64,000 bases of DNA from contig JBFIML010000010.1 of assembly GCA_041611735.1 (NCBI GenBank), positions 26,200 through 90,199 of the forward strand, in the 5' to 3' direction. Source of the stretch: Myxococcota bacterium. Lineage in GTDB: Bacteria; Myxococcota_A; UBA9160; PR03. The notes beneath the pieces are model-generated. The model saw nothing but the letters and a program-made list of their open reading frames with translations. It did no database searches and was not told the DNA's origin. Each line of letters begins with the position of its first letter. Within the stretch, counting starts at the first letter, position 1. A program made the position numbers and the translations under genes. This document shows, piece by piece, positions 15,597 to 28,203 of this stretch.

Positions 15597-18014
15597 ATGG
15601 CTAGCCGCGCCGCACGCCGCGGCCGGGGGGCGGCGGCGTCGGAACGACGCTCCGCCCTGCTCCGTTGGCTCCGCGAGGCCGTCGGCCTCGCCCTGATCGC
15701 CCTGGCGCTGCTCGCCGGCCTGGCCCTCTGGAGCTACGCGCCGGGCGATGCGCTCTTCGAGCTCGTGCCGGTCCGCAACCGGGCCGGCGCCGTGGGGGCC
15801 ACCCTGGCCGGGGTCCTGCGCCAGGGCCTGGGTGTCGTCTCGCTGGTGCTGGCGGGCGTGGCCGCCGTGCTCGGGGGTCGTGTCCTGCTGTCGCGGTGCG
15901 CACCGAGCCCGCGTTTCTGGCTGGGCGGTGCACTCCTGGTGGCCTGCGCGGCGACGCTCCTGGCTGTGGGTCACGTCCTGGCCCCGGCCCGCTTCGAGTC
16001 CGATCTCGGCGGGGCGCTCGGGGTCCGGCTGGCGGCCTGGCAGCGCCCCTGGCTGAGCAGCTGGGGCACGCTCGTCGTCAACGGCCTGGGTGCGGGCGTG
16101 GGGCTGCTCGCCGTGCTCGGCGTCTCGAGCCCGACTGCCTTGCGCGCCGCGGCGGCGGGAGCGGCCGGGCTCGCGGTCCTGGCCCGGCGCGCCCTCGCCG
16201 TCGGCTTCGTGGTCCTGGCGGCCGCGGCCCTGGCGGCGACCGGCCTGGCCCGGGCCCTGGGCCGGCTCGCCGCCGCCGGCGCCAGCGCCCTCGGCGAACG
16301 CTGGCGCGCCTTCGGAGTCTGGCGCGAGCGGCGGGCGCGGCGCGCGCGCGTGGCGGCGATCCGCGTCCCCGACGAGGCGCTGGAGCAGCCGGTGGAGGCG
16401 GTCCTGGAGCCGGCCCGCCCGCGCCCGCGCCGCCGCGACCGCGACGACCCTGCCATCGTGGACCACGCCGCCGAGCGCGAGCCGGGCCGCCCGGCCCGCC
16501 AGGAGGCCTTCGCCTTTCCGGACGGCCGGGCGCGGGGCCCCTACCGCCTGCCCGACGTCGCCATCTTCCAACGCTCGCCGGGCGGCGAGCGCCGCTACGA
16601 CCGCGACAGCCTGATCATGAACTCGCGGATCCTGGAGAAGAAGCTCCAGGACTTCGGCGTGCACGGCCGTGTGGTCACCGTCCACCCGGGACCGGTCATC
16701 ACCATGTACGAGTTCGAGCCGGCCTCCGGGGTCAAGGTGAACCGCATCGTGAACCTGGCGGACGACCTGGCGCTGGCGCTGCGGGCGCTCTCGGTGCGCA
16801 TCATCGCGCCGCTGCCGGGCAAGTCGGTGGTGGGAATCGAGGTCCCCAATGCGGAGCGCGAGGTGGTGGTGCTGCGCGACCTGCTGGAAGCGGAGTCGTT
16901 CCGGTCGAGCCGTTCCAAGCTCACCCTCGCGCTCGGCAAGGACATCTTCGGCAACCCGGTGGAGGCGGACCTGGCCCGCATGCCGCACCTGCTGGTGGCC
17001 GGGGCCACCGGGACCGGCAAGAGCGTGTTCCTGAACGCACTGCTCTGCTCGATCCTCGCCCGGGTCACGCCCGACCAGCTCAAGCTCCTCCTGATCGACC
17101 CCAAGCTCCTCGAGCTCTCGATCTACGAAGGGATCCCGCACCTGATCGCCGACGTGGTGACGAACCCGAAGCGGGCGGCGGCGGCGCTTGCGGGCATCGT
17201 CCACAAGATGGAGGAGCGCTACCAGATGATGGCGGCGCTCGGAGTCCGCAACATCGAGCAGTTCAACGCGCGCGTGGACGAGCAGCTCGCCGACGGTCGA
17301 ACGACGTTCCGCCTGCGACCCCGGCCCGGCGAGACCGAGGCGCGCGAGGCGCCGCTCACGCCCCTTGCCTACATCGTGGTGATCATCGACGAGCTGGCGG
17401 ACCTCATGGTGGTCTCCGCCCGCGACGTGGAGGAGGCGCTCCAGCGTCTCGCGCAGATGGCCCGCGCGGCGGGCATCCACCTGGTGCTGGCCACCCAGCG
17501 GCCGAGCGTGGACGTGCTGACCGGCGTGATCAAGGCGAACTTCCCGGCACGGATTTCCTTCCAGGTCTCGTCGCGCACCGACTCGCGCACGATCCTCGAC
17601 CAGAATGGCGCCGAGCACCTGCTCGGCCAGGGGGACATGCTGTTCCTCCCGCCCGGGACCTCGAAGCTCCAGCGCATCCACGGGGCCTTCGTGTCCGAGA
17701 AGGAGGTGACCGAGCTCGTGGCCTTCCTGCGCGACCAGGGAGCGCCGCAGTTCGACGACACGCTCGTGCGCATGAAGGAGGAGAGCGAGGCGCGCGAGGC
17801 GCGGGGCGAGGACGTGGACGACCTCTACGATCGGGCCGTGGCGCTGGTGGCGGAGAGCCGCAACGCCTCGATCTCCCACGTCCAGCGCCGACTCAAGGTG
17901 GGCTACAACCGGGCTGCCCGGATGATCGAGCAGATGGAGGCGGACGGCATCGTGGGTCCCCAGGAGGGGACCCGCCCGCGGGACGTGTTCATCCGCCCCC
18001 TCGACGTCGAATGA
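15597..18014 (+). CDS. ftsK: DNA translocase FtsK
   Basis: N-terminal TM domain, PHLLVAGATGTGKS, IIDELADLM, LATQRPSVDV and gamma domain QRRLKVGYNRAAR. Start uncertain. Confidence 0.96.
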   Translation: MASRAARRGRGAAASERRSALLRWLREAVGLALIALALLAGLALWSYAPGDALFELVPVRNRAGAVGATLAGVLRQGLGVVSLVLAGVAAVLGGRVLLSRCAPSPRFWLGGALLVACAATLLAVGHVLAPARFESDLGGALGVRLAAWQRPWLSSWGTLVVNGLGAGVGLLAVLGVSSPTALRAAAAGAAGLAVLARRALAVGFVVLAAAALAATGLARALGRLAAAGASALGERWRAFGVWRERRARRARVAAIRVPDEALEQPVEAVLEPARPRPRRRDRDDPAIVDHAAEREPGRPARQEAFAFPDGRARGPYRLPDVAIFQRSPGGERRYDRDSLIMNSRILEKKLQDFGVHGRVVTVHPGPVITMYEFEPASGVKVNRIVNLADDLALALRALSVRIIAPLPGKSVVGIEVPNAEREVVVLRDLLEAESFRSSRSKLTLALGKDIFGNPVEADLARMPHLLVAGATGTGKSVFLNALLCSILARVTPDQLKLLLIDPKLLELSIYEGIPHLIADVVTNPKRAAAALAGIVHKMEERYQMMAALGVRNIEQFNARVDEQLADGRTTFRLRPRPGETEAREAPLTPLAYIVVIIDELADLMVVSARDVEEALQRLAQMARAAGIHLVLATQRPSVDVLTGVIKANFPARISFQVSSRTDSRTILDQNGAEHLLGQGDMLFLPPGTSKLQRIHGAFVSEKEVTELVAFLRDQGAPQFDDTLVRMKEESEAREARGEDVDDLYDRAVALVAESRNASISHVQRRLKVGYNRAARMIEQMEADGIVGPQEGTRPRDVFIRPLDVE

Positions 18015-18739
18015 TCCCGTCCCGGGCGCGTCGAAGGGCCGTGCGCTCGATCCTGCCCCCGTGCCTGGCGATCGCCCTGCTCCTCGTGGCCGCCCCGACG
18101 CCGGCCAACGACTCCGACTCGTCGCCGTCCGGCTCCGGCTGCGCGGAAGCCGCCGCACGCCGGGTCCAGAGCCGTTACGAGGAGATCCGCGACCTCTCCG
18201 CCCGCTTCGAGCAGCGCACCCGCCCGGCTGCCTTCGGAGGCCAGGGCGCGCCCTTCGTGGCCCGGGGGCGCGTCACCCTCGCCAAGCCGGGCCGCATGCG
18301 GTGGGCCTACGAGGCGCCGGAGCCGAGCCTGGTGGTGAGCGACGGCAAGACGGTCTGGGTGTACGACCCCGCCGCCCGCGAGGCCCAGCACCTGCCCCTG
18401 GGCGAGCGTTTCCTCTCGGGCGCCGCGATCCAATTCCTGATCGGCCGCGGCAACCTGCTCGAGGAGTTCTCGGTGAGTTCGCCGGCCTGCGGCGAGTCCC
18501 CGCTGCGCCTCGTGCTGGTGCCGAAGCGGGATGCGCCCTACGAGCGGCTCGAGGTGCGCGTGGAGCCCCGCACCGGCGTGGTGGTCGAGACCGCCGTGGC
18601 GGACCTGCTCGGCAACGTGACCCACGTGGTCTTCGAGGACATGCGCACGAACCAGGACCCCGAGCCGGCCCTGTTCCGCTTCGAGCCGGAGCCGGGCGTC
18701 AAGGTGATCGAGCTGCCGCCGGCACCCGCCAGGCCCTAG
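18011..18739 (+). CDS. lolA: Outer membrane lipoprotein carrier LolA
   Basis: Signal peptide; ARFEQ, KPGRMRWAYEAP, VSDGKTVWVYDP and FRFEP motifs; ATGA overlap with ftsK. Confidence 0.92.
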   Translation: MIPSRARRRAVRSILPPCLAIALLLVAAPTPANDSDSSPSGSGCAEAAARRVQSRYEEIRDLSARFEQRTRPAAFGGQGAPFVARGRVTLAKPGRMRWAYEAPEPSLVVSDGKTVWVYDPAAREAQHLPLGERFLSGAAIQFLIGRGNLLEEFSVSSPACGESPLRLVLVPKRDAPYERLEVRVEPRTGVVVETAVADLLGNVTHVVFEDMRTNQDPEPALFRFEPEPGVKVIELPPAPARP

Positions 18740-19051
18740 GACCCCCCGAACGGAACCATGCAGCCGCGGGCCCTCCCGGGCCGGCGCGTCTCCGCATTCG
18801 GGAAGTCGACTTCCCTCCCGGGGCGGTCTCGCAAGGTTCCGCGCACGCCTCCCGCCTGCCGGTGGATCCCCGACGCTTTCGTCAAGAGGCTGGCTCCTGG
18901 CCCCCAGGCGTTGCCTCACGAGGCGGCAGCCAGGCGGCCCAGATGCGCGTCCCGGCGAAGCCAGCCGGCAGGCGCGCTGGCGGGGGGAGGGCGCCGCACC
19001 CCGCCGCCCCGCTCGCCGGGCGCCTCCGGGCGGCTGGGCCGGCCGTCTCGC

Positions 19052-19079
19052 TTGACAGCAAGACGCGTTCTGATAGACT
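19052..19079 (+). promoter_or_regulatory. Candidate promoter of the Pup-proteasome operon
   Basis: TTGACA-N16-TAGACT with an extended -10 TG, in an AT-richer patch. Confidence 0.6.
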
Positions 19080-19400
19080 CCACGAGGCTAAAAACGATTG
19101 CAATATCGAGGGTTTCGGCGGTTTCTTCGGCGCGGGTGAGAGCGGCCGGTGGGCCTCGGGAGGCGACCGGCCGGCGGCAGCTTCGGTCTTCGAAGCTCCG
19201 GTGGGGACGGTGATGCGGTCCGGCTCGGGCGTTCCCAACACTCGCGCGCAACGCGCGCGCAACTGCGGCGCGCAGCGGCTCGCCACCGGTTCGCTATCCG
19301 GCGATGATGCCTTTCCGGTGCACGGCACGTGGATTGCATCGATTCGTCCCCGAGTGGCGCCACGAGCGGGCGTGGCGCCGGAGCACGGGGAGAGGGCGCG

Positions 19401-21224
19401 ATGAGCGAATTCGATTCGGGCTCGGGCAGGAAGGGCTTCGTTCGGGACGTGATGCGGCGCATCTCGGCCTCGGGGCCCCGCTCAGGCGGAGAGCCGGACC
19501 CCGGGCGTGGCCCGGAGGAGACCCTGGAGGATCTCCTGGACGCGCTGCGGCTGTTCGGCGGGGATTCCAGCGAGTTCCGTCGTCGCTTGGACCGCGTGCT
19601 CGGCGAGTACGAGTCGCTGCGCCGCCGCTACCAGCTCTCCCGCGATCAGCTCGTCGATGCGGAGCGGCAGAACGAGCGGCTGGTCCACACCCTCCAGGAG
19701 GCCAAGCAGCAGATCGAGCTCCTGAAGGAGGAGGTGGAGAAGCTCTGCGCGCCTCCCAACAGCTACGGCGTCTTCACGCGCGCCAACAAGGACGGCACCG
19801 TGGAGATCGTCGTGGACGGCAAGCCCATGCGGGTGAGCGCCCATCCGAAGGTCGATCCCTTCCAGATCGAGGAAGGTCAGCTCGTCGTGCTGAACGAGGC
19901 GTTCAACGTGATCGAGCCGGCCGGCATCGTGACCCGGGGAGAGATCGCGTCGGTGGTCGACCTCCTCGGCGACGGGCGGGCCATCGTGCTCGGCCACGCC
20001 GACGAGGAGCGCGTCGTCACCCTGGCGTCCATCCTGCGCCAGGAGAAGCTCAAGGTCGGTGACCACATCATGATCGATCCGCGCACCCAGTACGCCTTCG
20101 AGAGGATGCCCAAGTCGGCGGTCGAGGAGGTCGTGCTCGAGGAGATCCCGGAGATCACCTACGATCGCATCGGCGGCCTGGACGAGCAGATCGAGATCCT
20201 TCGCGACGCGATCGAGCTGCCCTACCTGTATCCCGAGGCGTTCGCGGAGCACCGTCTCTCGCCGCCCAAGGGCATCCTGCTGTACGGCCCCCCGGGCTGC
20301 GGCAAGACGCTCATCGCCAAGGCGGTGGCGAACAGCCTGGCGCGGAGCATCGAGCAGCGCACGGGTCGGCGCACCGCTGCGTACTTCCTCAACGTGAAGG
20401 GGCCGGAGCTGCTCAACAAGTACGTGGGCGAGACCGAGCACAAGATCCGCGAGGTGTTCAAGAAGGCGCGCGAGAAGGCCAGCGAGGACGTGCCCGTCGT
20501 CATCTTCTTCGACGAAATGGATTCGCTCTTCCGCATGCGCGGATCGGGCATCTCCTCGGACATGGAGGCCACGGTGGTGGCTCAGTTCCTGTCGGAGATC
20601 GACGGGGTGGAGTCGCTGAACAACGTGATCGTGATCGGCGCCAGCAACCGGCAGGACCTGATCGACCCGGCGGTACTGCGCCCCGGACGCCTCGATCTCA
20701 AGGTCAAGGTGCACCGGCCCGACTCCCCGGCGGCGCGCGCCATCTTCGGGAAGTACCTGCTCACCGATCTTCCCTTCCACCCGAACGCGCAGGAGCGCTA
20801 CGGGAGCGATCCGCAGAAGATGGTGGACGGGATGATCGACGACACGATCGAGCACATGTACTCGACGTCGGAAGACAACAAGTTCCTGGAGGTGACGTAC
20901 GCCAAGGGCGAGCGCGAGATCTTCTACTTCAAGGACTTCGCGAGCGGCGCGATGATCGAGAACATCGTGGCGCGCGCCAAGAAGAAGGCCGTGAAGCGCC
21001 TGATCGACCACGGGGAACGCGGCGTCAAGCTCTCCGATCTCCTCGAGGCCGTGCGCGAGGAGTTCAAGGAGAACGAGGACCTTCCGAACACCACGAATCC
21101 GGACGACTGGGCGCGCATCTCCGGCCGCAAGGGCGAGCGGATCATCAACGTCCGGACGTTGATGACGGGGATCAATCGGAACGAGCGCTCGATCGAGAAC
21201 ATCAGCTCGGGTCAGTACCTGTAG
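19401..21224 (+). CDS. arc: Proteasome-associated AAA ATPase ARC/Mpa
   Basis: N-terminal coiled coil ending PPNSYG, OB domains, GPPGCGKT, IFFDEMDS, NEDLPNTTNPDDWARISG, and the C-terminal proteasome-docking GQYL. Confidence 0.97.
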   Translation: MSEFDSGSGRKGFVRDVMRRISASGPRSGGEPDPGRGPEETLEDLLDALRLFGGDSSEFRRRLDRVLGEYESLRRRYQLSRDQLVDAERQNERLVHTLQEAKQQIELLKEEVEKLCAPPNSYGVFTRANKDGTVEIVVDGKPMRVSAHPKVDPFQIEEGQLVVLNEAFNVIEPAGIVTRGEIASVVDLLGDGRAIVLGHADEERVVTLASILRQEKLKVGDHIMIDPRTQYAFERMPKSAVEEVVLEEIPEITYDRIGGLDEQIEILRDAIELPYLYPEAFAEHRLSPPKGILLYGPPGCGKTLIAKAVANSLARSIEQRTGRRTAAYFLNVKGPELLNKYVGETEHKIREVFKKAREKASEDVPVVIFFDEMDSLFRMRGSGISSDMEATVVAQFLSEIDGVESLNNVIVIGASNRQDLIDPAVLRPGRLDLKVKVHRPDSPAARAIFGKYLLTDLPFHPNAQERYGSDPQKMVDGMIDDTIEHMYSTSEDNKFLEVTYAKGEREIFYFKDFASGAMIENIVARAKKKAVKRLIDHGERGVKLSDLLEAVREEFKENEDLPNTTNPDDWARISGRKGERIINVRTLMTGINRNERSIENISSGQYL

Positions 21225-21254
21225 CGGTTCTTCCCGGCTAACCGCGGAGAAGCG

Positions 21255-22739
21255 ATGGCGATCCCCAAGGTGATGGGAACGGAGATCGAATACGGGATCA
21301 CCGTCAAGAACGACCGCGATTTCGACCCCATCTCGAGCTGTGTGCTGCTGGTCAACTCCTACCGGGAGGAGACGGCCGGGCAGATCCTGTGGGACTACGA
21401 CCAGGAGAATCCGCTGGCGGACGCCCGCGGCTTCCAGGTGGAGGGGGAGAAGTACACCCCCAACCAGCAGGAGAACATCGCGCGCAACAAGACGCTCGTG
21501 AATGGGGCGCGCTACTACGTCGACCACGCCCATCCCGAGTACTCCTGCCCCGAGGTCACCAACCCCCGCGATCTGGTCGTGCACGAGAAGGCCGGCGAGC
21601 GCATCGTGGAGCTCTCGCGGCGCGAGGCCAGCCGGGTGCTCCCGCCGGGCAGTCAGATGCTCATCTACAAGAACAACAGCGATCGCAAGGGAAACAGCTA
21701 CGGCTGCCACGAGAACTACTTGATGGACCGCCGCACGTCCTTCAAGCAGATCGTGGAGCATCTGATGCCATTCCTGGTGACCCGGCAGTTGTACACGGGA
21801 GCCGGAAAGGTGGGCAGCGAGAACCGGGCGCAGCCCTGCGAGTACCAGCTCTCGCAGCGTGCGGACTTCTTCGAGACCGAGGTGGCGCTCGACACCATGG
21901 TGAAGCGCCCCATCATCAATACGCGTGACGAACCCCACGCGGACCGCGAGAAGTACCGCCGGCTGCACGTGATCGTGGGCGACTCGAACATGAGTGAGTT
22001 CACGATCTACCTGCGCAACGGCGCCACCGCGATCGTGCTTTCCATGATCGAGGACGGCGCGATCACCCGGGACCTCTCCCTCCACGACCCCGTGCGCGCG
22101 ATCAAGGAGGTCTCCCACGACGTCGCCTGCCGACGCCCCCTCGAACTCGCCAACGGAAAGCGTATGACCGCCGTGCAGATCCAGGCCGAGTACCTGGCCA
22201 TGGCGCACCGCTACGTGGCCGGGCGCCCCCAGGAACCCTGGGTCTCCGAGGTCCTGCAGAAGTGGGAGCGGGTGCTCGACGCCCTGGCCCGGGATCCCAT
22301 GGAGCTCGCCGGCGAGATCGACTGGGTGATCAAGCACGCGATGATCCGGGGCTTCATGGAGCGCAAGGGGCTCGACTGGGGCTCCTCCCAGGTCCAGATG
22401 CTCGACCTCCAGTACCACGACCTGCGTCCCGACAAGGGGCTGTACTATCTTCTGGAACGCCAGGGGAAGGTCGAGCGCATCGTCGAGGACGACCAGATCC
22501 GCCGCGCCATCCACGAGCCGCCCGAGGACACGCGGGCGTATTTCCGGGGCTCCTGCCTCAAGCGCTTCGGATCGGAGGTCTTCGGTGTGAACTGGGACTC
22601 GATCTCGTTCGGCATCGGAGACGAGCCGATCAAGCGCGTCCTCATGGTCGAGCCCCTCAAGGGCTCGAAGACGCACGTGGAGGAGCTCCTGGCCCGGTCG
22701 CCGACCGCGGCGGATCTCGTCCGGAACCTGAGGGCCTGA
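21255..22739 (+). CDS. dop: Pup deamidase/depupylase Dop
   Basis: GTEIEYGI, Dop loop WDY..ENPLADARGF, NGARYYVDHAHPEYS and NWDS motifs. Confidence 0.95.
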   Translation: MAIPKVMGTEIEYGITVKNDRDFDPISSCVLLVNSYREETAGQILWDYDQENPLADARGFQVEGEKYTPNQQENIARNKTLVNGARYYVDHAHPEYSCPEVTNPRDLVVHEKAGERIVELSRREASRVLPPGSQMLIYKNNSDRKGNSYGCHENYLMDRRTSFKQIVEHLMPFLVTRQLYTGAGKVGSENRAQPCEYQLSQRADFFETEVALDTMVKRPIINTRDEPHADREKYRRLHVIVGDSNMSEFTIYLRNGATAIVLSMIEDGAITRDLSLHDPVRAIKEVSHDVACRRPLELANGKRMTAVQIQAEYLAMAHRYVAGRPQEPWVSEVLQKWERVLDALARDPMELAGEIDWVIKHAMIRGFMERKGLDWGSSQVQMLDLQYHDLRPDKGLYYLLERQGKVERIVEDDQIRRAIHEPPEDTRAYFRGSCLKRFGSEVFGVNWDSISFGIGDEPIKRVLMVEPLKGSKTHVEELLARSPTAADLVRNLRA

Positions 22740-22761
22740 TCCAGGGCCCGGGAGAGTCGCG

Positions 22762-23022
22762 ATGCAACGCCACACCAACCCCCCTGCTCGCCCTACCGCG
22801 GGATGGCTTCCGATCTTCGCGGCTGCCGACTCCCAGCAGAAGCAGAAGCCGAGACGCGGCGGTGGCGAGGGCGAGGCCGAGAGCGAGGGCGGCCAGAAGC
22901 TCGCCAAGAAGGGCGAGGAACTCAAGGAAGAGATGGACGCACTGATCGACGAGATCGACGAGGTCCTCGAGGAGAACGCCGAGGAGTTCGTCAAGAACTA
23001 CGTCCAGCGCGGCGGCCAGTAG
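22762..23022 (+). CDS. pup: Prokaryotic ubiquitin-like protein Pup (C-terminal GGQ)
   Basis: DALIDEIDEVLEENAEEFVKNYVQRGGQ matches the Pup C-terminal consensus; lies between dop and prcB; GGAGAG RBS. Confidence 0.95.
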   Translation: MQRHTNPPARPTAGWLPIFAAADSQQKQKPRRGGGEGEAESEGGQKLAKKGEELKEEMDALIDEIDEVLEENAEEFVKNYVQRGGQ

Positions 23023-23053
23023 CCGGCTTCCGGAGACCGAAGAGGGGGGTTCG

Positions 23054-23839
23054 GTGCTCTTCCAGGGCAAGTACGGTGGGTCCAGCTTTCGCGAGCTGAT
23101 CGAAACCGACTTCCCGCAGCTCCTTCCGGCGCTGCGGGGGGAGCCGGGTCGAGCGCTCCCGAGCGTCCCGCACGGCACCACCGTGCTCGCGCTCAAGTAC
23201 GGTGACGGAGTGCTGGTCGGCGGCGACCGACTCGCCACCGAGGGCTACCGCGTCGCCTCCCGAGACATCCAGAAGGTCTACGCCACGGACGCGCATTCCC
23301 TCATCGCGATTTCGGGGGCGGCGGGACCCAGCATCGAGATGGCCCGTCTGCTGCGCATCGAGCTCGAGCACTACGAGAAGATCGAGGGGGAGGCCCTCGA
23401 GCTCGAGGGCAAGGCCAACAAGCTCTCCCAGATGGTGCGTGCCAACCTGCCCGCCGCCATGCAGGGTCTCGTGGTCGTTCCCATCTTCGCCGGCTACGAC
23501 CTGCGCCGGAGCACCGGCCGGCTGTGGAAGTACGACGTGACCGGAGGCCGCTACGAGGAGGCGGAGTACGATGCCTCCGGGAGTGGTGGACTGTTCGCAC
23601 GCGACTCGCTCAAGAAGAGCTGGCGGCCGGGCCTTTCGCGGGAAGAGGCGTTGCGAAACGGCATCCAGGCCCTCGTAGATGCGGCCGACGAGGATCGGGC
23701 CACCGGGGGGGTGGACCTGCTGCGGGGCATCTTCCCCACCGTGAACCTCTGCACCGAGCAGGGCATCGAGGACGTATCCGAAGACGAACTGCGGCGGGTC
23801 TACGAGCAGGCCATGGCTCCGCGGCGCGCTGCGGAGTAG
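23054..23839 (+). CDS. prcB: 20S proteasome beta subunit
   Basis: Propeptide with SSF.., processing site PHG|TTVLAL, GDRLAT, ELEHYEKIEG, SGSGG and AADEDRATGG. Confidence 0.96.
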   Translation: MLFQGKYGGSSFRELIETDFPQLLPALRGEPGRALPSVPHGTTVLALKYGDGVLVGGDRLATEGYRVASRDIQKVYATDAHSLIAISGAAGPSIEMARLLRIELEHYEKIEGEALELEGKANKLSQMVRANLPAAMQGLVVVPIFAGYDLRRSTGRLWKYDVTGGRYEEAEYDASGSGGLFARDSLKKSWRPGLSREEALRNGIQALVDAADEDRATGGVDLLRGIFPTVNLCTEQGIEDVSEDELRRVYEQAMAPRRAAE

Positions 23840-23845
23840 CCGCCC

Positions 23846-24544
23846 ATGTCGATGCCGTTCTACGTCTCTCCCGAGCAGTGGATGCAGGACAAGGCGGAGT
23901 ACGCCCGCAAGGGCATCGCCCGCGGCCGGTCGCTCATCGCCCTGGAGTACCAGGCCGGCATCCTGCTGATCGCCGAGAACCCGTCGAGCTTGTCGAAGAT
24001 CGGTGAGATCTACGATCGCATCGCCTTCGCGGGCGTGGGCAAGTTCAGCGAATTCGACCAGCTGCGCAAGATCGGCGTGCGCTACTGCGACGTGAAGGGC
24101 TACGCCTACAGCCGGGAGGACGTGCGCGCCAAGGCGCTGGCCAACGCCTACTCCCAGGCGATCGGTGACGTCTTCACGCGCGAGCTCAAGCCGCTCGAGG
24201 TCGAGGTGATCGTGGCGGAGGTGGGCAACGACGAGCTGGTGGGTCAGGAACGCAACGCGATCTTCCGCGTGCAGTTCGACGGCAGCATCTCGGACCATGA
24301 GGGCCATTGCGTGATCGGGGGCAGCGTGGAGAACCTCCAGGGCCACCTCCAGGGCCACTACCGCGCTGATCTACCCCTCGGGGAAGCCGTGCGCCTGGGG
24401 CGCGACGCGCTGGCTCAGGCAGGCGGAGGTCACGCGGGGCTCGCCCCCGAGAACCTCGAGGTGTGCGTGCTCGATCGCTCGCGTCCCGGCCGAAAGTTCC
24501 GGCGCCTTCCCGCCGAAGAAGTACGAGGTATGCTAGGCGGCTGA
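23846..24544 (+). CDS. prcA: 20S proteasome alpha subunit
   Basis: MSMPFYVSPEQWMQDKAEYARKGIARGRS, KIGEIYDRIAFAGVG and YSREDV motifs. Confidence 0.96.
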   Translation: MSMPFYVSPEQWMQDKAEYARKGIARGRSLIALEYQAGILLIAENPSSLSKIGEIYDRIAFAGVGKFSEFDQLRKIGVRYCDVKGYAYSREDVRAKALANAYSQAIGDVFTRELKPLEVEVIVAEVGNDELVGQERNAIFRVQFDGSISDHEGHCVIGGSVENLQGHLQGHYRADLPLGEAVRLGRDALAQAGGGHAGLAPENLEVCVLDRSRPGRKFRRLPAEEVRGMLGG

Positions 24545-24574
24545 GGGCCGGGGAAGCCGGCTGCGCCGGAACGC

Positions 24575-25984
24575 GTGGTGCAAAAACGAATCTACGGTCT
24601 GGAGACCGAATACGGGATCATCTTCACGCCCGAGGGCCGCAAGACGCTGCCCGTCGAGAAGGCGATCCGTTTCCTTTTCGAGAAGCTGATCACCACCGAG
24701 CACTTCCTCAACGTCTTCCTCGAGAACGGCGCGCGCTTCTACCAGGACACGGGCTGCCACCCGGAGTACGCCACGCCGGAATGCGCCTCGCCTCGCCAGC
24801 TGCTCGTGTACGACAAGGCCGGCGAGCGCATCCTGGAGGAGCTCCAGGACTACGCCGAGGAGAAGATCCGCGAGGAGCGCATCGCGGGCAAGCTCTCGAT
24901 CTTCAAGAACAACACCGACTTCGTGGGCAACAGCTACGGCTGCCACGAGAACTACCTGGTCGACCGGGATGTAGACTTCTACTACCTGGCCGAGCAGCTG
25001 ATTCCGTTCCTGGTGACCCGCCAGATCTACACGGGTGCCGGCAAGGTCTTCCAGACCCAGGACGGCGTGCACTACTGCATCAGCCAGCGCGCCCAGCACA
25101 TCTACCAGAAGATCTCTGGCACCACGACGAACGATCGCTCCATCATCAACACGCGCGACGAGCCGCACGCGGACCGCGAGAAGTACCGGCGCCTCCACGT
25201 GATCGTGGGCGACTCGAACATGAGCGAATACACGAACTTCATCAAGATCGGGACGTGCGCCGTCGTGCTGCAGATGATCGAGGACAACTTCATCAACAAG
25301 GACTTCACCCTGCGCAATCCGGTGAAGGCGATCAAGGACATCTCGTACGACACCACCTGCAAGCGTCGACTGCGCCTGGACAACGGCCGGGAGTATTCGC
25401 CGATCGAGATCCAGCGCGAGTACTGCGAGATGGCCCAGCGCTACCTGGAGCAGTATCCGGTCAGCGACGAGCTACGCGATTCGGTCGTCGAATGGCAGTA
25501 CGTGCTCGACTGCCTGGACACGGATCCCAACCGACTGTCGAGACAGATCGATTGGGTGATCAAGCGGCAGATGATCGAATCGTACCTGGGGAGCCGGGGC
25601 ACGACCTGGAACGATCCTCGCGTCTTCATGCTCGATCTCCAGTTTCACGACATCCGCGTGAGCCGCGGGCTCTTCTATCTGCTGGAGCGCAAGGAGGCGG
25701 CGGACCGGCTGCTGAACGACGACGAGGTCATGAAGGCCAAGACCGAGCCGCCGCCCGACACGCGGGCCAAGATGCGGGGCGAGTTCATCAAGCTCGCGCG
25801 CCAGAACGCGATCCAGTACGACCTGGACTGGTCGAACATCCGCCTCGGCAACCTGCTCAACGTGCGCGTGATCTGCAACAACCCCTTCGAGACCGATACG
25901 GAGAAGGTCGCGGAGCTGGTGCGGACGATCCAGAAGACGAACCTGCGCAAGACGAGCCTCTCGAAGCTGGTGATCCAGTCGTGA
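24575..25984 (+). CDS. pafA: Pup-protein ligase PafA
   Basis: RIYGLETEYG, NVFLENGARFYQDTGCHPEYATPEC, KNNTD..GNSYGCHENYL, ISQRAQHI and PPPDTRAKMRGEFI motifs. Confidence 0.95.
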   Translation: MVQKRIYGLETEYGIIFTPEGRKTLPVEKAIRFLFEKLITTEHFLNVFLENGARFYQDTGCHPEYATPECASPRQLLVYDKAGERILEELQDYAEEKIREERIAGKLSIFKNNTDFVGNSYGCHENYLVDRDVDFYYLAEQLIPFLVTRQIYTGAGKVFQTQDGVHYCISQRAQHIYQKISGTTTNDRSIINTRDEPHADREKYRRLHVIVGDSNMSEYTNFIKIGTCAVVLQMIEDNFINKDFTLRNPVKAIKDISYDTTCKRRLRLDNGREYSPIEIQREYCEMAQRYLEQYPVSDELRDSVVEWQYVLDCLDTDPNRLSRQIDWVIKRQMIESYLGSRGTTWNDPRVFMLDLQFHDIRVSRGLFYLLERKEAADRLLNDDEVMKAKTEPPPDTRAKMRGEFIKLARQNAIQYDLDWSNIRLGNLLNVRVICNNPFETDTEKVAELVRTIQKTNLRKTSLSKLVIQS

Positions 25985-26361
25985 GCCCGGCGGAGGATCG
26001 CCCGCGGCTCGTGGCCGTCCCCGGGAGCCCGGAGCCGGCCGCGCCGGAGGCCCCGGCCCCCGGGGTGGGGGGCGCTGGCCGCGCTCCCTGGGTGCTGAGC
26101 GCGCTGCTGGCGCTGGCGCTCCTGATCTCCTTCGTGGCCCTGGTGCGCCAGGTCCAGCAGACCCGCGGGCTCGAGGCCCGGGTGGAGGACCTGAGCGCGG
26201 CCCTGGGCGGCGCCGAGGCCGAGATCGAGGCGCGTCGCCTCCACCTGGATGCGGTGCGCGGGGAGGTCACCCGGGTGGGCGAGGCCCTCGGTGCCCTGGC
26301 GGAGCTGGTGACCCGGGACCCGGCGCCGGCCCCCCCCACGCGGCCGCCCGCAGTCGACTGA
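25981..26361 (+). CDS. Small single-pass membrane protein with coiled coil
   Basis: GTGA overlap with the pafA stop; Pro-rich N-terminus, TM segment WVLSALLALALLISFVALV, then a heptad-like helix. Confidence 0.7.
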   Translation: MSPAEDRPRLVAVPGSPEPAAPEAPAPGVGGAGRAPWVLSALLALALLISFVALVRQVQQTRGLEARVEDLSAALGGAEAEIEARRLHLDAVRGEVTRVGEALGALAELVTRDPAPAPPTRPPAVD

Positions 26362-26479
26362 GCCGCCCCCGGGAGCCCGCCCGGGTCCCTCGACTTTCCC
26401 CTCAATCTCTTCCGCCGGCAACCCGATACGTCCCCCGACGGCACGCCCGGGTGGCGCGCCGCCAGCGGAGAGCGCGGCC

Positions 26480-27514
26480 ATGTTCAGCTCGCTCGCGGGC
26501 CTCTTCTCCAACGACCTCGCCATCGACCTCGGCACCGCGAATACGCTGGTGTACGCCCGGGGCAAGGGGGTCGTCTGCTCGGAGCCGAGCGTCGTGGCGG
26601 TCGCCAAGGACCCGAACGGCCGCGGGGAGCGGGTCCTGGCGGTCGGCAACGAGGCGAAGGCCATGCTCGGGCGCACGCCCCACGGCATCCGCGCCATCCG
26701 CCCCATCAAGGACGGGGTCATCGCCGATTTCGAAGTCACCGAGGCGATGCTCCGCTACTTCATCCACCGGGCCCACAACCGCTCCAAGCTCGTACGCCCG
26801 CGCATCGTGATCTGCGTGCCGCCCTGCATCACGAGCGTGGAGAAGCGTGCGGTGCGCGAGTCGGCGCTCTCGGCCGGGGCGCGCGAGGTCTTCCTGATCG
26901 AAGAGCCCATGGCGGCCGCCATCGGGGCCGGACTCGACGTGACTGCCCCCAGCGGGAACATGGTCTGCGACATCGGCGGTGGCACCACCGACGTGGCCGT
27001 CACCTCCCTGGCCGGCATCGTGGCCTCGCGCTCCGTCCGCTGCGGCGGCGACAAGATGGACGAGGCGATCATCCAGTACGTGAAGCGGAAGTACAACGTC
27101 CTGATCGGTGAGCGCACCGCCGAGGACGTCAAGATGACGATCGCCACGGCCTCGCCGCACGGCAAGACCCAGACCATGGAGATCAAGGGGCGCGATCTGG
27201 TGGCCGGCATTCCGAAGGTGGTGGTGGCCACCAGCGAGGAGATCTACGAGGCGCTGATCGAGCCGATCAGCACGATCGTAGAGACCGTGCATCTCACCCT
27301 CGAGCGGACGCCGCCCGAGCTCGCCGCGGACATCGTGGATCGCGGCATCATGCTGGTGGGCGGGGGCTCCCTGCTGCGGGACCTGGACCGGGTGCTACGC
27401 GAGGAGACCAAGCTCCCCATCCTGCGCAGCGACGATCCGTTCACGGCGGTGGTCCACGGGGCCGGCCGGGCCCTGGAGGACCTGGCCCTGCTGCGCCAGG
27501 TGGCCCTGGTCTGA
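26480..27514 (+). CDS. mreB: Rod shape-determining actin homologue MreB
   Basis: DLAIDLGTANT, PIKDGVIADF, LIEEPMAAAIG and DIGGGTT motifs; N-terminal amphipathic helix. Confidence 0.96.
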   Translation: MFSSLAGLFSNDLAIDLGTANTLVYARGKGVVCSEPSVVAVAKDPNGRGERVLAVGNEAKAMLGRTPHGIRAIRPIKDGVIADFEVTEAMLRYFIHRAHNRSKLVRPRIVICVPPCITSVEKRAVRESALSAGAREVFLIEEPMAAAIGAGLDVTAPSGNMVCDIGGGTTDVAVTSLAGIVASRSVRCGGDKMDEAIIQYVKRKYNVLIGERTAEDVKMTIATASPHGKTQTMEIKGRDLVAGIPKVVVATSEEIYEALIEPISTIVETVHLTLERTPPELAADIVDRGIMLVGGGSLLRDLDRVLREETKLPILRSDDPFTAVVHGAGRALEDLALLRQVALV

Positions 27515-27594
27515 AGCCCGGTGCTTCGGTCGGGCGCCTTGCCAGCGGCGTGTCTCGACTCCGATGATCCGCACCGAATCTCTGGGACGGGAAA

Positions 27595-28203
27595 CTAGGG
27601 TCCCATCAGGCCGGCCAGGGCGAGCTGCATGACCAGCGCCACGTCGCCCTCCAGCTGCACCCGTCCAGCCAGAAAGGCCGCCTGGGGCTCGAGCCGTCCC
27701 TCCCGCAGCTCCCGGAAGGTCTCGGCGTCCACGCGGATGCGGGCGTCCGGCTCCGCCGGTGGGGCGACGCCCCCCAGGTGCACCAGGACGCCGAAGCCCG
27801 CCTCGCCGGTCACGTCGACGCGCAGCGTGCCGCGTACCGAGGCGATCCGCTCGACCCGGGACGCGGTGAGCGGAGCCGGGCCGGCCAGACCGGGCAGGGT
27901 CGAGATCAGCGCCAGCGGCTCCTGCTCCATCTCGCCCAGCAGGCGCTCGAAGTCGGCCAGCTCCTGCACGAACGTCACGAACGGCGGTCGTGCCGGCGCC
28001 TCGCCCCCGGACATGTGGCCCGCCTCGATGTTCAGGTAGAAGGTCCCGCCTCCTTCGCCCGCCAGGTCCACGCGAACGGTCGCGGCCAGTTCGCCCAGGG
28101 CCGCCCGGCCCGCGTCGCCGCCGGCCTCCTCGCCGAGCAGGCGGTTGAAGCGCGCCGGCAGGTGCTCGATCAGGAACCGGCGCGGGTCGATCCGGCCACT
28201 CAC
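27595..28203 (-). CDS. SCP2 sterol/lipid-binding domain protein (tandem SCP2-like)
   Basis: GEGGGTFYL, then LEPQAAFLAGRVQLEGDVALVMQL; GTGA overlap with the mltG stop. Confidence 0.8.
   Translation of the reverse strand: MSGRIDPRRFLIEHLPARFNRLLGEEAGGDAGRAALGELAATVRVDLAGEGGGTFYLNIEAGHMSGGEAPARPPFVTFVQELADFERLLGEMEQEPLALISTLPGLAGPAPLTASRVERIASVRGTLRVDVTGEAGFGVLVHLGGVAPPAEPDARIRVDAETFRELREGRLEPQAAFLAGRVQLEGDVALVMQLALAGLMGP

What the first reader, a model, noticed from the sequence alone, without database searches (positions are those of the whole stretch)
19401..25984. Complete actinobacterial-type Pup-proteasome operon in a diderm, Myxococcota-like genome
Seen: arc(GQYL)-dop-pup-prcB-prcA-pafA are contiguous, intact and in the actinobacterial order. 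They sit between lolA and mreB/mltG, with no integrase or transposase nearby, and by eye share the host's GC-rich codon style. The same window carries lolA, bamD, lgt, pilT and a TIGR02266-type PilZ gene. Known: pupylation with a 20S proteasome is characteristic of Actinobacteria and is reported only sporadically elsewhere (e.g. Nitrospirae); many Gram-negative homologous loci use UBact instead. The modifier here is a true Pup (EIDEVLEENAEEFV..YVQRGGQ). Inference: an anciently acquired, functional ubiquitin-like degradation system in an understudied diderm lineage, with unknown substrates.
Basis: partly seen in the sequence, partly recalled or inferred. Interest (0 to 1): 0.85.

Follow-up and report, generated by a model that had tools for sequence, protein, structure and literature searches.

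The report
Pup-proteasome operon in uncultured Myxococcota
An uncultured outer-membrane-bearing bacterium of the Myxococcota carries a complete, intact tag-and-destroy (Pup-proteasome) operon of the kind known from Mycobacterium, inherited as a core trait by its whole class, so it widens a known system and does not add a new one.

Summary
Six contiguous intact genes, arc/mpa, dop, pup, prcB, prcA and pafA (19401-25984, + strand), match the curated models for the bacterial Pup-proteasome system. They lie between lolA and mreB.

It is not a contaminant or a recent insert. Third-codon GC equals that of the neighbours. Contigs of a second study's run bridge both junctions. The order ftsK-lolA-operon-mreB-ruvX-recA recurs in related MAGs, and the operon is complete and ordered in 57 of 59 loci with room for it.

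In a 400-genome sample of the host's phylum, PafA is found in 75 of 77 genomes of the host's class and 0 of 323 in other classes. The 20S beta subunit is found in 72 of 77 and 0 of 323.

PafA and Dop fall outside the actinobacterial clades. Their nearest named relatives are Candidatus Moduliflexus and Entotheonellia.

A conserved sigma-54 -24/-12 element precedes arc. PafA carries a class-invariant C-terminal tail.

Earlier follow-ups of this scan reached the same reading on other genomes.

Verdict: real, probably functional, and a new member of a known kind.

The parts
19323..19338 (+). sigma-54-type -24/-12 promoter element (CGGCACGTGGATTGCA), 78 nt before the arc start codon
   Evidence: locate it. 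An equivalent element scores at least 10 of 12 in 54 of 57 relatives' upstream regions, against 7 of 285 control windows. It is the only conserved block upstream of arc. The genome encodes RpoN and at least 14 strong enhancer-binding-protein domains. Promoter activity is inferred.
19401..21224 (+). arc/mpa: proteasomal AAA+ ATPase with coiled coil, two OB domains, an AAA module, a beta-grasp region and a C-terminal GQYL
   Evidence: TIGR03689 gives 723.1 bits, and Pfam finds Prot_ATP_ID_OB_N, Prot_ATP_ID_OB_C and AAA. It aligns end to end with the PDB chain 7px9 named proteasome-associated ATPase, 632 bits, GQYL included. The ATG at 19401 is supported by a conserved Shine-Dalgarno site and ATGAGCGAGTTCGA in relatives. 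GQYL is kept in 65 of 65 relatives.
21255..22739 (+). dop: Pup deamidase/depupylase
   Evidence: TIGR03688 gives 581 bits against a cut-off of 492.3; its PafA-model score is 428.7. It groups with the class and with an Entotheonellia Dop inside the Dop clade.
22762..23022 (+). pup: prokaryotic ubiquitin-like protein, an 86-aa ORF ending in GGQ
   Evidence: PF05639 gives 72.1 bits and TIGR03687 gives 58 bits. In relatives the C-terminus is GGE in 47 of 71 and GGQ in 24 of 71. The N-terminal part of about 25 aa is variable among relatives, so the start codon is not certain.
23054..23839 (+). prcB: 20S proteasome beta subunit with a propeptide; the predicted catalytic Thr1 is residue 42 of the ORF (HG|TT)
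   Evidence: TIGR03690 gives 293.3 bits. The alignment to the PDB proteasome beta chains 1q5r and 1q5q puts residue 1 of the mature chain at ORF residue 42. The GTG start is not verified.
23846..24544 (+). prcA: 20S proteasome alpha subunit
   Evidence: TIGR03691 gives 290.5 bits against a cut-off of 139.05.
24575..25984 (+). pafA: Pup ligase, with a 19-residue C-terminal extension ending in LSKLVIQS
   Evidence: TIGR03686 gives 542.2 against a cut-off of 551.3, and the Dop model gives 409.4. PF03136 gives 501.6. It aligns over its full length with the PDB Pup--protein ligase 4b0t, 344 bits. The AlphaFold2 model has mean pLDDT 89.9, with the tail 458-469 under 50. The tail is identical in 79 of 79 relatives.
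26002..26361 (+). possible small gene after pafA, a hydrophobic stretch followed by a coiled-coil-like part; whether it belongs to the operon is uncertain
   Evidence: The open frame has a recognisable counterpart just after pafA in 16 of 80 loci (tblastn). It matches no Pfam family. The start codon is not determined.

Best explanation
This is a canonical Pup-proteasome system that is a vertically inherited core trait of a class-level lineage of uncultured, outer-membrane-bearing Myxococcota.

The mechanism below follows from what is established for the mycobacterial system. Nothing here is shown biochemically.

1. Dop deamidates the C-terminal Gln of Pup (GGQ) to Glu.
2. PafA uses ATP to ligate that Glu to lysines of target proteins.
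3. The coiled coils of the ARC/Mpa hexamer capture Pup and thread the substrate.
4. ARC's GQYL tails dock on the alpha ring of the 20S core (PrcA7-PrcB7-PrcB7-PrcA7). The Thr1 active sites of the core, exposed by propeptide removal, degrade the substrate.
5. Dop also removes Pup.

Unlike in Actinobacteria, the operon appears to be transcribed from a sigma-54 promoter. It would then be switched on by an unidentified enhancer-binding protein in response to a signal.

The system entered, or was already present in, the stem of this class. It did not come from within the sampled Actinobacteria.
For: - Identity of the parts: curated-model scores and end-to-end PDB alignments that include GQYL and the HG|TT processing site.
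- Integrity and constraint: no stops in any gene. NG86 dN/dS against 8 relatives is 0.06-0.11 for pafA, 0.02-0.27 for pup, 0.15-0.30 for arc, 0.14-0.24 for dop, 0.16-0.39 for prcB and 0.21-0.36 for prcA. For comparison, mreB gives 0.12-0.24 and recA 0.17-0.27. GQYL is kept in 65 of 65 relatives and GG[QE] in 71 of 71.
- Native to the host: GC3 is 0.86-0.93, like the neighbours. Logan contigs of run X5, from a study other than X2's, cover 18000-19325, 19323-19721 and 25940-26532 with 0-1 differences.
- Vertical inheritance: PafA plus Dop are found in 40 of 41 genomes of the family and order, the window's own genome included. PafA is in 75 of 77 class genomes and 0 of 323 of other classes. 20S beta is in 72 of 77 and 0 of 323. 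The operon is complete and ordered in 57 of 59 loci, and lolA lies upstream in 57 of 57.
- Not from within Actinobacteria (careful IQ-TREE, 48 rows). Class PafA (100/99) joins Moduliflexus (98/92) and lies outside a 15-row clade (99/97) whose 4 named members are all Actinomycetota. Class Dop (100/99) joins Entotheonellia (100/91) and lies outside a 7-row clade (99/96) whose 3 named members are all Actinomycetota (names).
- Sigma-54.
Against: - No biochemical or proteomic evidence exists for this lineage.
- PafA scores 9 bits under NCBIfam's equivalog cut-off.
- The only RNA library that held related words, X19, gave short pieces about 90% identical. These come from relatives, and an RNA library can carry DNA, so expression is not shown.
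- Two of 59 loci break the pattern. L039 has arc and dop in pieces, but ftsK and recA are fragmented there too, so assembly indels are likely. L087 has pafA alone.
- Only 7 of the 22 rows in the two 'actinobacterial' clades carry names, and the sister relation of the PafA clades has moderate support (94/63). The tree is unrooted, so no donor or direction is shown.
- The sigma-54 element is a sequence motif. By itself it is not significant within the window: 3 matches were seen and 3.17 expected. Its weight comes from position and conservation.
- Bpa was not found in the genome, but the control search rang nowhere, so that result is uninformative.
Confidence: 0.88

Rival explanations
1. The operon is a recent horizontal transfer from an actinobacterium, or an assembly or binning chimera, and is not native to this genome.
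For: Total GC of the operon (0.61-0.68) is below that of the flanks, about 0.72. The gene order is the one I recall for Actinobacteria.
Against: GC3 equals the host's. Both junctions are bridged in contigs of two studies. The same flanks recur in 57 of 57 loci for lolA and 49 of 61 for mreB. The operon is class-wide. PafA is 37-48% identical to the actinobacterial representatives and lies outside their clade.
Confidence: 0.02
2. The genes are kept, but the main role is regulatory, non-degradative pupylation, or pupylation-independent 20S proteolysis, and not Pup-directed degradation.
For: PafA and Pup are far more constrained than the 20S subunits: dN/dS is 0.06-0.11 for pafA against 0.16-0.39 for prcB and prcA. 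The genome holds two further Pup-like conjugation loci without 20S genes. The genome also has a third proteasome-family gene on contig C40, which I did not examine.
Against: ARC with GQYL, both 20S genes and pup are co-inherited in one operon in 57 of 59 loci. 20S beta is present in 72 of 77 class genomes. The processing site before the predicted Thr1 is kept.
Confidence: 0.08
3. The system is a relic of a Pup-proteasome that was already present deep in Bacteria and lost in most lineages, not an acquisition at the base of the class.
For: The class clusters with other uncultured diderm lineages (Moduliflexus, Entotheonellia). Further 'PafA2 family' ligases occur in Gemmatimonadota and Tectomicrobia. 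There are 6337 representative clusters with E <= 1e-3 in a 1.84-billion-protein library. The class clades are sister to, not inside, the actinobacterial ones.
Against: PafA was found in 0 of 323 sampled genomes of the other classes of the same phylum. That would need many losses, whereas one gain at the class stem is more parsimonious. The PafA partner (Moduliflexus) and the Dop partner (Entotheonellia) are different lineages, though this may only reflect which representatives carried names.
Confidence: 0.15

Closest known systems
Actinobacterial Pup-proteasome system (Mycobacterium tuberculosis Mpa, Dop, Pup, PrcB, PrcA, PafA; Rhodococcus 20S)
   Same: It has the same six components in the same order. 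ARC aligns end to end with the PDB proteasome-associated ATPase 7px9, including the GQYL tail. PrcB aligns with the proteasome beta chains 1q5r and 2jay, with the same propeptide cleavage context. PafA aligns with the Pup--protein ligase 4b0t. Pup keeps the ligase-binding C-terminus and GGQ. The organism names of the PDB entries are recalled, not printed by the tool.
   Different: The host is an outer-membrane-bearing Myxococcota lineage. The operon is compact and sits between lolA and mreB. A conserved sigma-54 -24/-12 element stands in front of arc; that Actinobacteria lack sigma-54 is recalled, not tested. PafA has an extra 19-residue C-terminal tail that is invariant in the class. No pafB or pafC follows pafA within the operon. 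PafA and Dop branch outside the actinobacterial clades.
Pup/PafA loci of Plesiocystis pacifica (Myxococcota) and Rhodopirellula, described by Iyer, Burroughs and Aravind 2008 (PMC2588565, passages read)
   Same: These are Pup-type conjugation genes in a deltaproteobacterial or Myxococcota-type host.
   Different: According to the paper, those loci have no linked proteasome genes and their ligases carry a four-transmembrane insertion. Here ARC and both 20S subunits are in the operon, and PafA has no such insertion: the model match is full-length and uninterrupted.
Proteasome loci of Nitrospirae and Leptospirillum, and the UBact-type loci of other Gram-negative phyla
   Same: These are complete pupylation-like gene sets with a proteasome in Gram-negative bacteria. 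Iyer 2008 lists nitrospirae and verrucomicrobia. The Leptospirillum paper (De Mot 2007) and the UBact paper (Lehmann 2017) are recalled; I did not see them.
   Different: The modifier here matches the Pup models above their cut-offs. PafA and Dop score far closer to the actinobacterial models (542 and 581 bits) than most other non-actinobacterial 'PafA2 family' representatives do, which score 282-420 bits with little difference between the PafA and Dop models. No UBact profile was available to test.
Candidatus Moduliflexus flocculans PafA and Candidatus Entotheonellia Dop (nearest named relatives outside the class)
   Same: PafA is 61% identical to the Moduliflexus cluster representative and Dop 64% to the Entotheonellia one, with well-supported sister grouping. 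The Moduliflexus-type PafAs also have a basic and aromatic C-terminal extension.
   Different: The tail sequences differ: ...RKRFRFY against ...LSKLVIQS. I did not see the gene neighbourhoods of those organisms.

Membership tests
Bacterial Pup-proteasome system | A Pup modifier: small, matching the Pup family, with a C-terminal GG[QE] | tested here: met
   PF05639 gives 72.1 bits against 27, and TIGR03687 gives 58 against 41.45. The protein ends in GGQ.
Bacterial Pup-proteasome system | PafA ligase: a member of the Pup_ligase family that is PafA-type and not Dop-type | tested here: met
   PF03136 gives 501.6 bits. The PafA model scores 542.2 against 409.4 for the Dop model. It aligns over its full length with the PDB ligase 4b0t. 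In the tree it is on the PafA side, next to the actinobacterial PafA clade.
Bacterial Pup-proteasome system | PafA reaches NCBIfam's equivalog cut-off (TIGR03686, 551.3 bits) | tested here: not met
   It scores 542.2 bits, 9 bits short. Of the 41 genomes searched, the window's own included, 9 reach the cut-off, so the class straddles it.
Bacterial Pup-proteasome system | Dop deamidase/depupylase | tested here: met
   TIGR03688 gives 581 bits against 492.3. It sits inside the Dop clade (99/98).
Bacterial Pup-proteasome system | ARC/Mpa ATPase with a coiled coil, tandem OB domains, one AAA module and a C-terminal GQYL | tested here: met
   TIGR03689 gives 723.1 bits against 504.75. Pfam finds the OB_N, OB_C and AAA domains. 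The alignment to 7px9 runs to the last residue, GQYL.
Bacterial Pup-proteasome system | Bacterial-type 20S alpha and beta subunits, the beta with a propeptide and an N-terminal Thr after processing | tested here: met
   TIGR03691 gives 290.5 bits and TIGR03690 gives 293.3 bits. The mature PDB beta chains start at ORF residue 42, HG|TT.
Bacterial Pup-proteasome system | Pupylation, depupylation and Pup-dependent degradation activity | not testable with these tools
   This needs biochemistry or proteomics.
UBact-type conjugation loci of Gram-negative bacteria | A modifier of the UBact type and not the Pup type | not testable with these tools
   I found no UBact profile in the libraries I used, and the UBact definition is recalled only. 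The modifier does pass both Pup models, which argues for Pup.
Membrane-anchored Pup ligases (Plesiocystis/Rhodopirellula type, Iyer 2008) | A four-transmembrane insertion in the ligase and no linked proteasome genes | tested here: not met
   PafA matches the models without an insertion. The proteasome genes are adjacent. The defining features are taken from PMC2588565.

The most novel reading that the evidence does not exclude
The Pup-proteasome is not an actinobacterial speciality. It is shared with a separate, old diderm branch made up of this Myxococcota class, Moduliflexus and Entotheonellia, and that branch is sister to all actinobacterial systems. In this branch the system has been rewired in three ways. 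It is under sigma-54 and enhancer-binding-protein control. Its ligase carries an invariant basic and hydrophobic C-terminal tail that tethers it to the membrane or to a partner. In this genome it also works beside two further, proteasome-less Pup-like conjugation systems with unrecognised modifiers, one of which has its own ARC-like ATPase. Together these would form a small pupylation network, not a single degradation pathway.
Probability: 0.2. Interest if true: 0.65.

Novelty: new member of a known kind. Interest (0 to 1): 0.4.

Why it matters
Reviews of the field still describe bacterial proteasomes as an actinobacterial feature. I read passages of PMC6466877 and saw the abstract of PMC4254994 in a search listing.

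Here the complete system is a core, strongly constrained trait of a whole class of environmental Gram-negative bacteria. It has a different transcriptional logic (sigma-54) and a ligase more conserved than RecA or MreB.

This gives three things:
- a second, independent lineage in which to ask what pupylation is for;
- a test of whether the system predates Actinobacteria;
- natural variants (the PafA tail, GGE against GGQ Pup, extra Pup-like loci) for structure-function work.

The gain is incremental. The parts and the mechanism are textbook, public annotation already names these proteins, and this scan has reported the same operon in several sister genomes.

Tried and rejected
- Literature. 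'pupylation' plus 'Myxococcota' gave 0 papers. 'UBact' as a whole word gave 21 papers, none on this lineage. A six-term search (pupylation, several phyla, horizontal gene transfer) gave nothing relevant in the 20 papers listed. For 'Myxococcota', 'proteasome' and 'prokaryotic ubiquitin-like protein', the only paper holding all three was a 2024 review. I read its one Pup/UBact passage, which says nothing on this. PMC7203096 holds its UBact passages beyond the 300,000 characters kept, so I could not read them. Subscription-journal papers (De Mot 2007, Lehmann 2017) are not in the library.
- Naming representatives.
- The search for homologous proteins with PafA returned almost only the class itself and a group 61-70% identical. 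It gave no named Actinobacteria, so it did not help the tree.
- Bpa (PF10759) found no match in the own genome, but it also rang in none of the 14 control genomes, so this is uninformative.
- The 658-nt lolA-arc gap has no conserved DNA or peptide apart from the sigma-54 element. No Rfam family matched at E <= 0.1 in 17500-27600. A sigma-70-like site at 19052-19079 is not position-conserved in relatives.
- The RNA run X19 gave only pieces about 90% identical, 107-220 nt long, so there is no evidence of expression of this organism's operon.
- The AlphaFold2 model of PafA placed the invariant tail at low confidence (pLDDT under 50) and gave no clue to its function.
- I did not run a complex prediction. 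I do not claim a specific binding partner for the tail, and the textbook pairs would pass by likeness to solved structures.
- The first FastTree of 135 rows put win_PafA on the Dop side of a midpoint root. I set it aside in favour of the mixture-model tree on 48 rows.


Full report
**What is there.** The window is G000:C10:26200-90199 of a 4.09-Mb, 118-contig genome with 72% GC and 95% estimated completeness.

Between 19401 and 25984 on the + strand lie six contiguous open frames separated by 6 to 31 bases. Each matches the curated model for one part of the bacterial Pup-proteasome system:
- arc/mpa: TIGR03689, 723 bits.
- dop: TIGR03688, 581 bits.
- pup: PF05639, 72 bits, and TIGR03687, 58 bits.
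- prcB: TIGR03690, 293 bits.
- prcA: TIGR03691, 290 bits.
- pafA: TIGR03686, 542 bits. This is 9 bits below the equivalog cut-off and 133 bits above its Dop score. PF03136 gives 502 bits.

Alignments to solved structures add detail:
- ARC runs end to end along the proteasome-associated ATPase of entry 7px9, including the last four residues, GQYL.
- The mature beta chains of entries 1q5q and 2fhg begin at residue 42 of the PrcB ORF, after HG|TT, the expected autoprocessing site.
- PafA aligns over residues 3-450 with the ligase of entry 4b0t.
- An AlphaFold2 model of PafA is confident, with mean pLDDT 89.9 and pTM 0.90.

**Surroundings.**
- Upstream are ssb, an acyltransferase, ftsK and lolA (18011-18739). 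A 658-nt stretch without coding signal follows.
- Downstream are a small open frame (about 26002-26361), mreB (26480-27514), an SCP2-domain ORF, mltG and ruvX on the minus strand, then pgpA, cinA, ligT, recA, a PilT-family ATPase and alaS.
- No integrase or transposase family appeared among the 31 ORFs scanned in 100-42400.

**Native or foreign.**
- Total GC drops to 0.61-0.68 in the operon, against about 0.72 around it. GC at third codon positions is 0.86-0.93, the same as the neighbours' 0.83-0.95. The dip therefore reflects the amino-acid make-up of conserved proteins, not foreign codon use.
- Logan contigs of run X2 cover 18000-19702 and 25940-26758 with 1-2 differences.
- Contigs of run X5, from a different study, cover 18000-19325, 19323-19721 and 25940-26532 with 0-1 differences. 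X2 may be the sample of origin and does not count as independent.

**Host and distribution.** The best 80 are 80-94% identical and all are MAGs. Their titles break down as follows:
- 68 are titled Myxococcota, Deltaproteobacteria, delta proteobacterium, Myxococcales or Myxococcaceae.
- 8 are titled Spirochaetales or Spirochaetaceae.
- 4 carry other names.

One of the 'Spirochaetaceae' records has 'MYXO' in its isolate name, so I take these as mislabels. That is my inference.

I mapped the window's proteins onto these 80 loci:
- The operon is complete and in the same order in 57 of the 59 loci with at least 5.6 kb before pafA.
- lolA lies upstream in 57 of 57 loci with room for it.
- mreB lies within 5.5 kb downstream in 49 of 61.
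- The two exceptions are L039 and L087. In L039, arc and dop appear in pieces, but so do ftsK, lolA and recA, which points to indel errors of the assembly. In L087, pafA stands alone.

Using the held GTDB genomes:
- PafA and Dop are found about 3 kb apart in 40 of 41 genomes of the family and order, the window's own genome included. The one miss is 70% complete.
- In an even sample of 400 other genomes of the phylum, PafA (E <= 1e-60) is in 75 of 77 genomes of the host's class and 0 of 323 of the other classes.
- The bacterial 20S beta subunit (E <= 1e-30) is in 72 of 77 and 0 of 323.

These are samples. 'Not found in those searched' is the correct wording for the other classes. The 1e-60 threshold would also miss divergent ligases such as the Plesiocystis type.

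**Constraint.** Against eight relatives, NG86 dN/dS values are:
- pafA 0.06-0.11
- pup 0.02-0.27
- dop 0.14-0.24
- arc 0.15-0.30
- prcB 0.16-0.39
- prcA 0.21-0.36
- mreB 0.12-0.24 and recA 0.17-0.27, for comparison in the same loci.

Synonymous distances are compressed by the extreme GC3, so absolute values are rough and the ranking is the useful part. The ranking may also be slightly biased, because the loci were picked by PafA similarity.

In amino-acid identity, PafA (80-94%) exceeds RecA (69-82%) and MreB (75-86%) across the loci. Among the relatives, ARC ends in GQYL in 65 of 65. Pup ends in GGE in 47 of 71 and in GGQ in 24 of 71.

**Origin.** A HMMER search of 1.84 billion cluster representatives with PafA gave 6337 hits at E <= 1e-3.
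- The nearest full-length representative outside the class is 61% identical, and its cluster contains Candidatus Moduliflexus flocculans.
- Named actinobacterial PafA representatives are 36-48% identical: Ilumatobacteraceae 48, Dermatophilus 42, Actinomycetales 37 and Actinomycetaceae 38, and 36-47% for the same four (names).
- The nearest Dop representative is 64% identical, and its cluster contains a Candidatus Entotheonellia protein.

I built a mixture-model IQ-TREE (LG+C20 by PMSF). It has 48 rows: the window's PafA and Dop, 42 representatives picked across the clades of a first 135-row FastTree, and PafA and Dop of two divergent class members. The four divergent paralogues of the own genome were left out.
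- Class PafA (100/99) joins Moduliflexus (98/92) and one unnamed row (96/84).
- That group stands beside, with 94/63 support, a 15-row clade (99/97) whose four named members are all Actinomycetota.
- Class Dop (100/99) joins the Entotheonellia row (100/91).
- That pair stands beside a 7-row clade (99/96) whose three named members are all Actinomycetota.

So neither enzyme nests within the sampled Actinobacteria. Most rows are unnamed and the tree gives no root within PafA or Dop, so I cannot say who gave the system to whom.

By model scores, the window's enzymes and those two relatives are much closer to the actinobacterial families than the other non-actinobacterial 'PafA2 family' representatives. 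Those score 282-420 bits, with little difference between the PafA and Dop models.

**Regulation.** Earlier notes of this scan on sister genomes mention a sigma-54 promoter, and I tested that here.
- At 19323-19338 the window reads CGGCACGTGGATTGCA, which matches TGGCACG-N4-TTGCW in 11 of 12 specified positions. It lies 78 nt before the arc ATG.
- Alone this is not significant: 3 matches with at most 1 mismatch occur in the window, and 3.17 are expected.
- In the regions from -400 to +60 of arc, 54 of 57 relatives have an element scoring at least 10 of 12. Only 7 of 285 random windows from the same loci do.
- In 55 of 57 relatives the element lies within 200 nt of the start. When the sequences are anchored on it, it is the only conserved block. 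A Shine-Dalgarno site (GAGGAGAGGG-like) and ATGAGCGAGTTCGA follow 60-160 nt downstream, which also fixes the arc start at 19401.
- The genome encodes RpoN (444 bits against a cut-off of 277) and at least 14 strong Sigma54_activat domains.

Promoter function and the activator remain inferred.

**Differences from the actinobacterial system.** Besides host and promoter, PafA carries 19 residues beyond the end of the PafA model, ...QKTNLRKTSLSKLVIQS.
- The last eight residues are identical in 79 of 79 relatives.
- The Moduliflexus-like and other intermediate PafAs (62-66% identical) also end in basic and aromatic tails: ...RKRFRFY, ...NFKYGYLL, ...NMRKFFF.
- The named actinobacterial representatives examined, and those that look like them, lack this tail; P0004, P0012 and P0013 stop shortly after the conserved DPF...LI..L segment.
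- The structure model gives the tail low confidence.

A basic stretch followed by hydrophobic residues resembles membrane-targeting or docking peptides. That comparison is my recollection and speculation, and it is untested.

The Pup ORF has a variable N-terminal extension of about 25 residues that many, but not all, relatives share.

**What it most likely does.** From the established mycobacterial mechanism: Dop converts Pup-GGQ to Pup-GGE. PafA ligates it to target lysines. ARC binds Pup, unfolds the target and feeds it to the PrcAB core, on which it docks through GQYL. Dop also reverses the tagging. Every component, motif and processing site needed is present and under purifying selection. 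Activity, substrates and the inducing signal are unknown.

**Known or new.**
- Pup and PafA outside Actinobacteria were described in 2008, including in the myxobacterium Plesiocystis. There they come without proteasome genes and with membrane-inserted ligases (PMC2588565, passages read).
- Proteasome-linked loci in Leptospirillum and the UBact loci are known to me from memory only.
- Public annotation already labels the class's proteins 'Pup--protein ligase' or 'PafA2 family protein [Myxococcota bacterium]'.
- I found no paper in the searchable library that links pupylation or Pup with Myxococcota.
- Field reviews still speak of an actinobacterial feature (passages, abstract listing).
- Earlier follow-ups of this scan reached the same conclusion on at least seven other genomes.

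I therefore rate it a real, well-supported new member of a known kind, of moderate interest.

**Beyond the finding.** The same genome has two more loci of the Pup-ligase family.
- On contig C88: a sigma-70 region-4 protein, a Dop-like gene, a 68-aa ORF ending in RQRGGQ, and a PafA-like gene.
- On contig C42: a weak JAB-like gene, an ARC-like ATPase with proteasomal OB domains, a Dop-like gene, a 65-aa ORF ending in LQTGGQ, a PafA-like gene, and a histidine kinase.
- Neither locus has 20S genes. Neither small ORF matches Pfam's Pup model at E <= 0.01, and their likeness to Pup is limited to the last 18 residues or so.
- Such extra matches are sporadic among relatives: pairs in G012 and weaker or fragmentary matches in G035, G029 and G021 of the 40 relatives, and a match in G300.

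These loci look more unusual than the operon itself and deserve their own follow-up.

Noticed in passing
own genome, contig C88:438-5768 (locus L100): This is a second Pup-like conjugation locus without proteasome genes. It holds a sigma-70 region-4 protein, an unknown ORF, a Dop-like gene (510 aa), a 68-aa ORF ending ...FLAQNRQRGGQ, and a PafA-like gene (523 aa). An ArsR-type regulator follows. The ligases score only 215-238 bits on the PafA and Dop models. The small ORF does not match Pfam Pup at E <= 0.01.
   Followed up: partly
own genome, contig C42:27287-34956, minus strand (locus L099): This is a third Pup-like locus. It holds a weak Prok-JAB protein, an ARC-like AAA ATPase with proteasomal OB domains (557 aa), a Dop-like gene (537 aa), a 65-aa ORF at 30445-30642 ending ...FLRDLLQTGGQ, a PafA-like gene (544 aa), and a histidine kinase. 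It has no 20S genes. Such extra matches are sporadic among relatives.
   Followed up: partly
window 25928-25984 (last 19 codons of pafA): PafA has a C-terminal extension beyond the family model. Its last 8 residues, LSKLVIQS, are identical in 79 of 79 relatives. Related non-actinobacterial PafAs end in other basic and aromatic tails. The tail is modelled at pLDDT under 50. Its function is unknown.
   Followed up: partly
window 26002-26361 (+): A small open frame sits between pafA and mreB, with a hydrophobic segment followed by a coiled-coil-like part. A recognisable counterpart lies in the same place in 16 of 80 loci. It matches no Pfam family.
   Followed up: partly
window 19052-19079 (+): A sigma-70-like site, TTGACA-16-TAGACT with a TG, matches 10 of 12 positions and lies about 320 nt before arc in the lolA-arc gap. 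It is not conserved by position in relatives.
   Followed up: partly
window 22762-22860 and the pup ORFs of loci L016-L095: Pup ends in GGE in 47 and in GGQ in 24 of 71 relatives. Many Pup ORFs carry a variable N-terminal extension of 20-30 residues before the AA[DE]SxQKQK start seen in the short forms, so the true start codons are uncertain.
   Followed up: partly
proteins P0008 and P0052 (representatives near the class's PafA in the first tree): Two PafA-type proteins of 669-677 aa carry an N-terminal ECF sigma-factor domain, a fusion of sigma factor and Pup ligase. Their organisms are unnamed.
   Followed up: no
own genome, contig C40:9994-10503: This is a third match to the Proteasome family (76 bits), besides prcB and prcA. 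It is possibly hslV, but I did not examine it.
   Followed up: no
loci L039 and L087: In L039, arc, dop, ftsK, lolA and recA are all split into pieces in different frames, which suggests indel errors in that assembly and not gene decay. L087 has pafA without the other five genes upstream.
   Followed up: partly
window 18000-27600, run X19: A metatranscriptome library holds many short contigs about 90% identical to arc, dop, pup, prcA and pafA. They come from relatives, not from this organism, and may include DNA carry-over. This is no evidence of expression here.
   Followed up: partly
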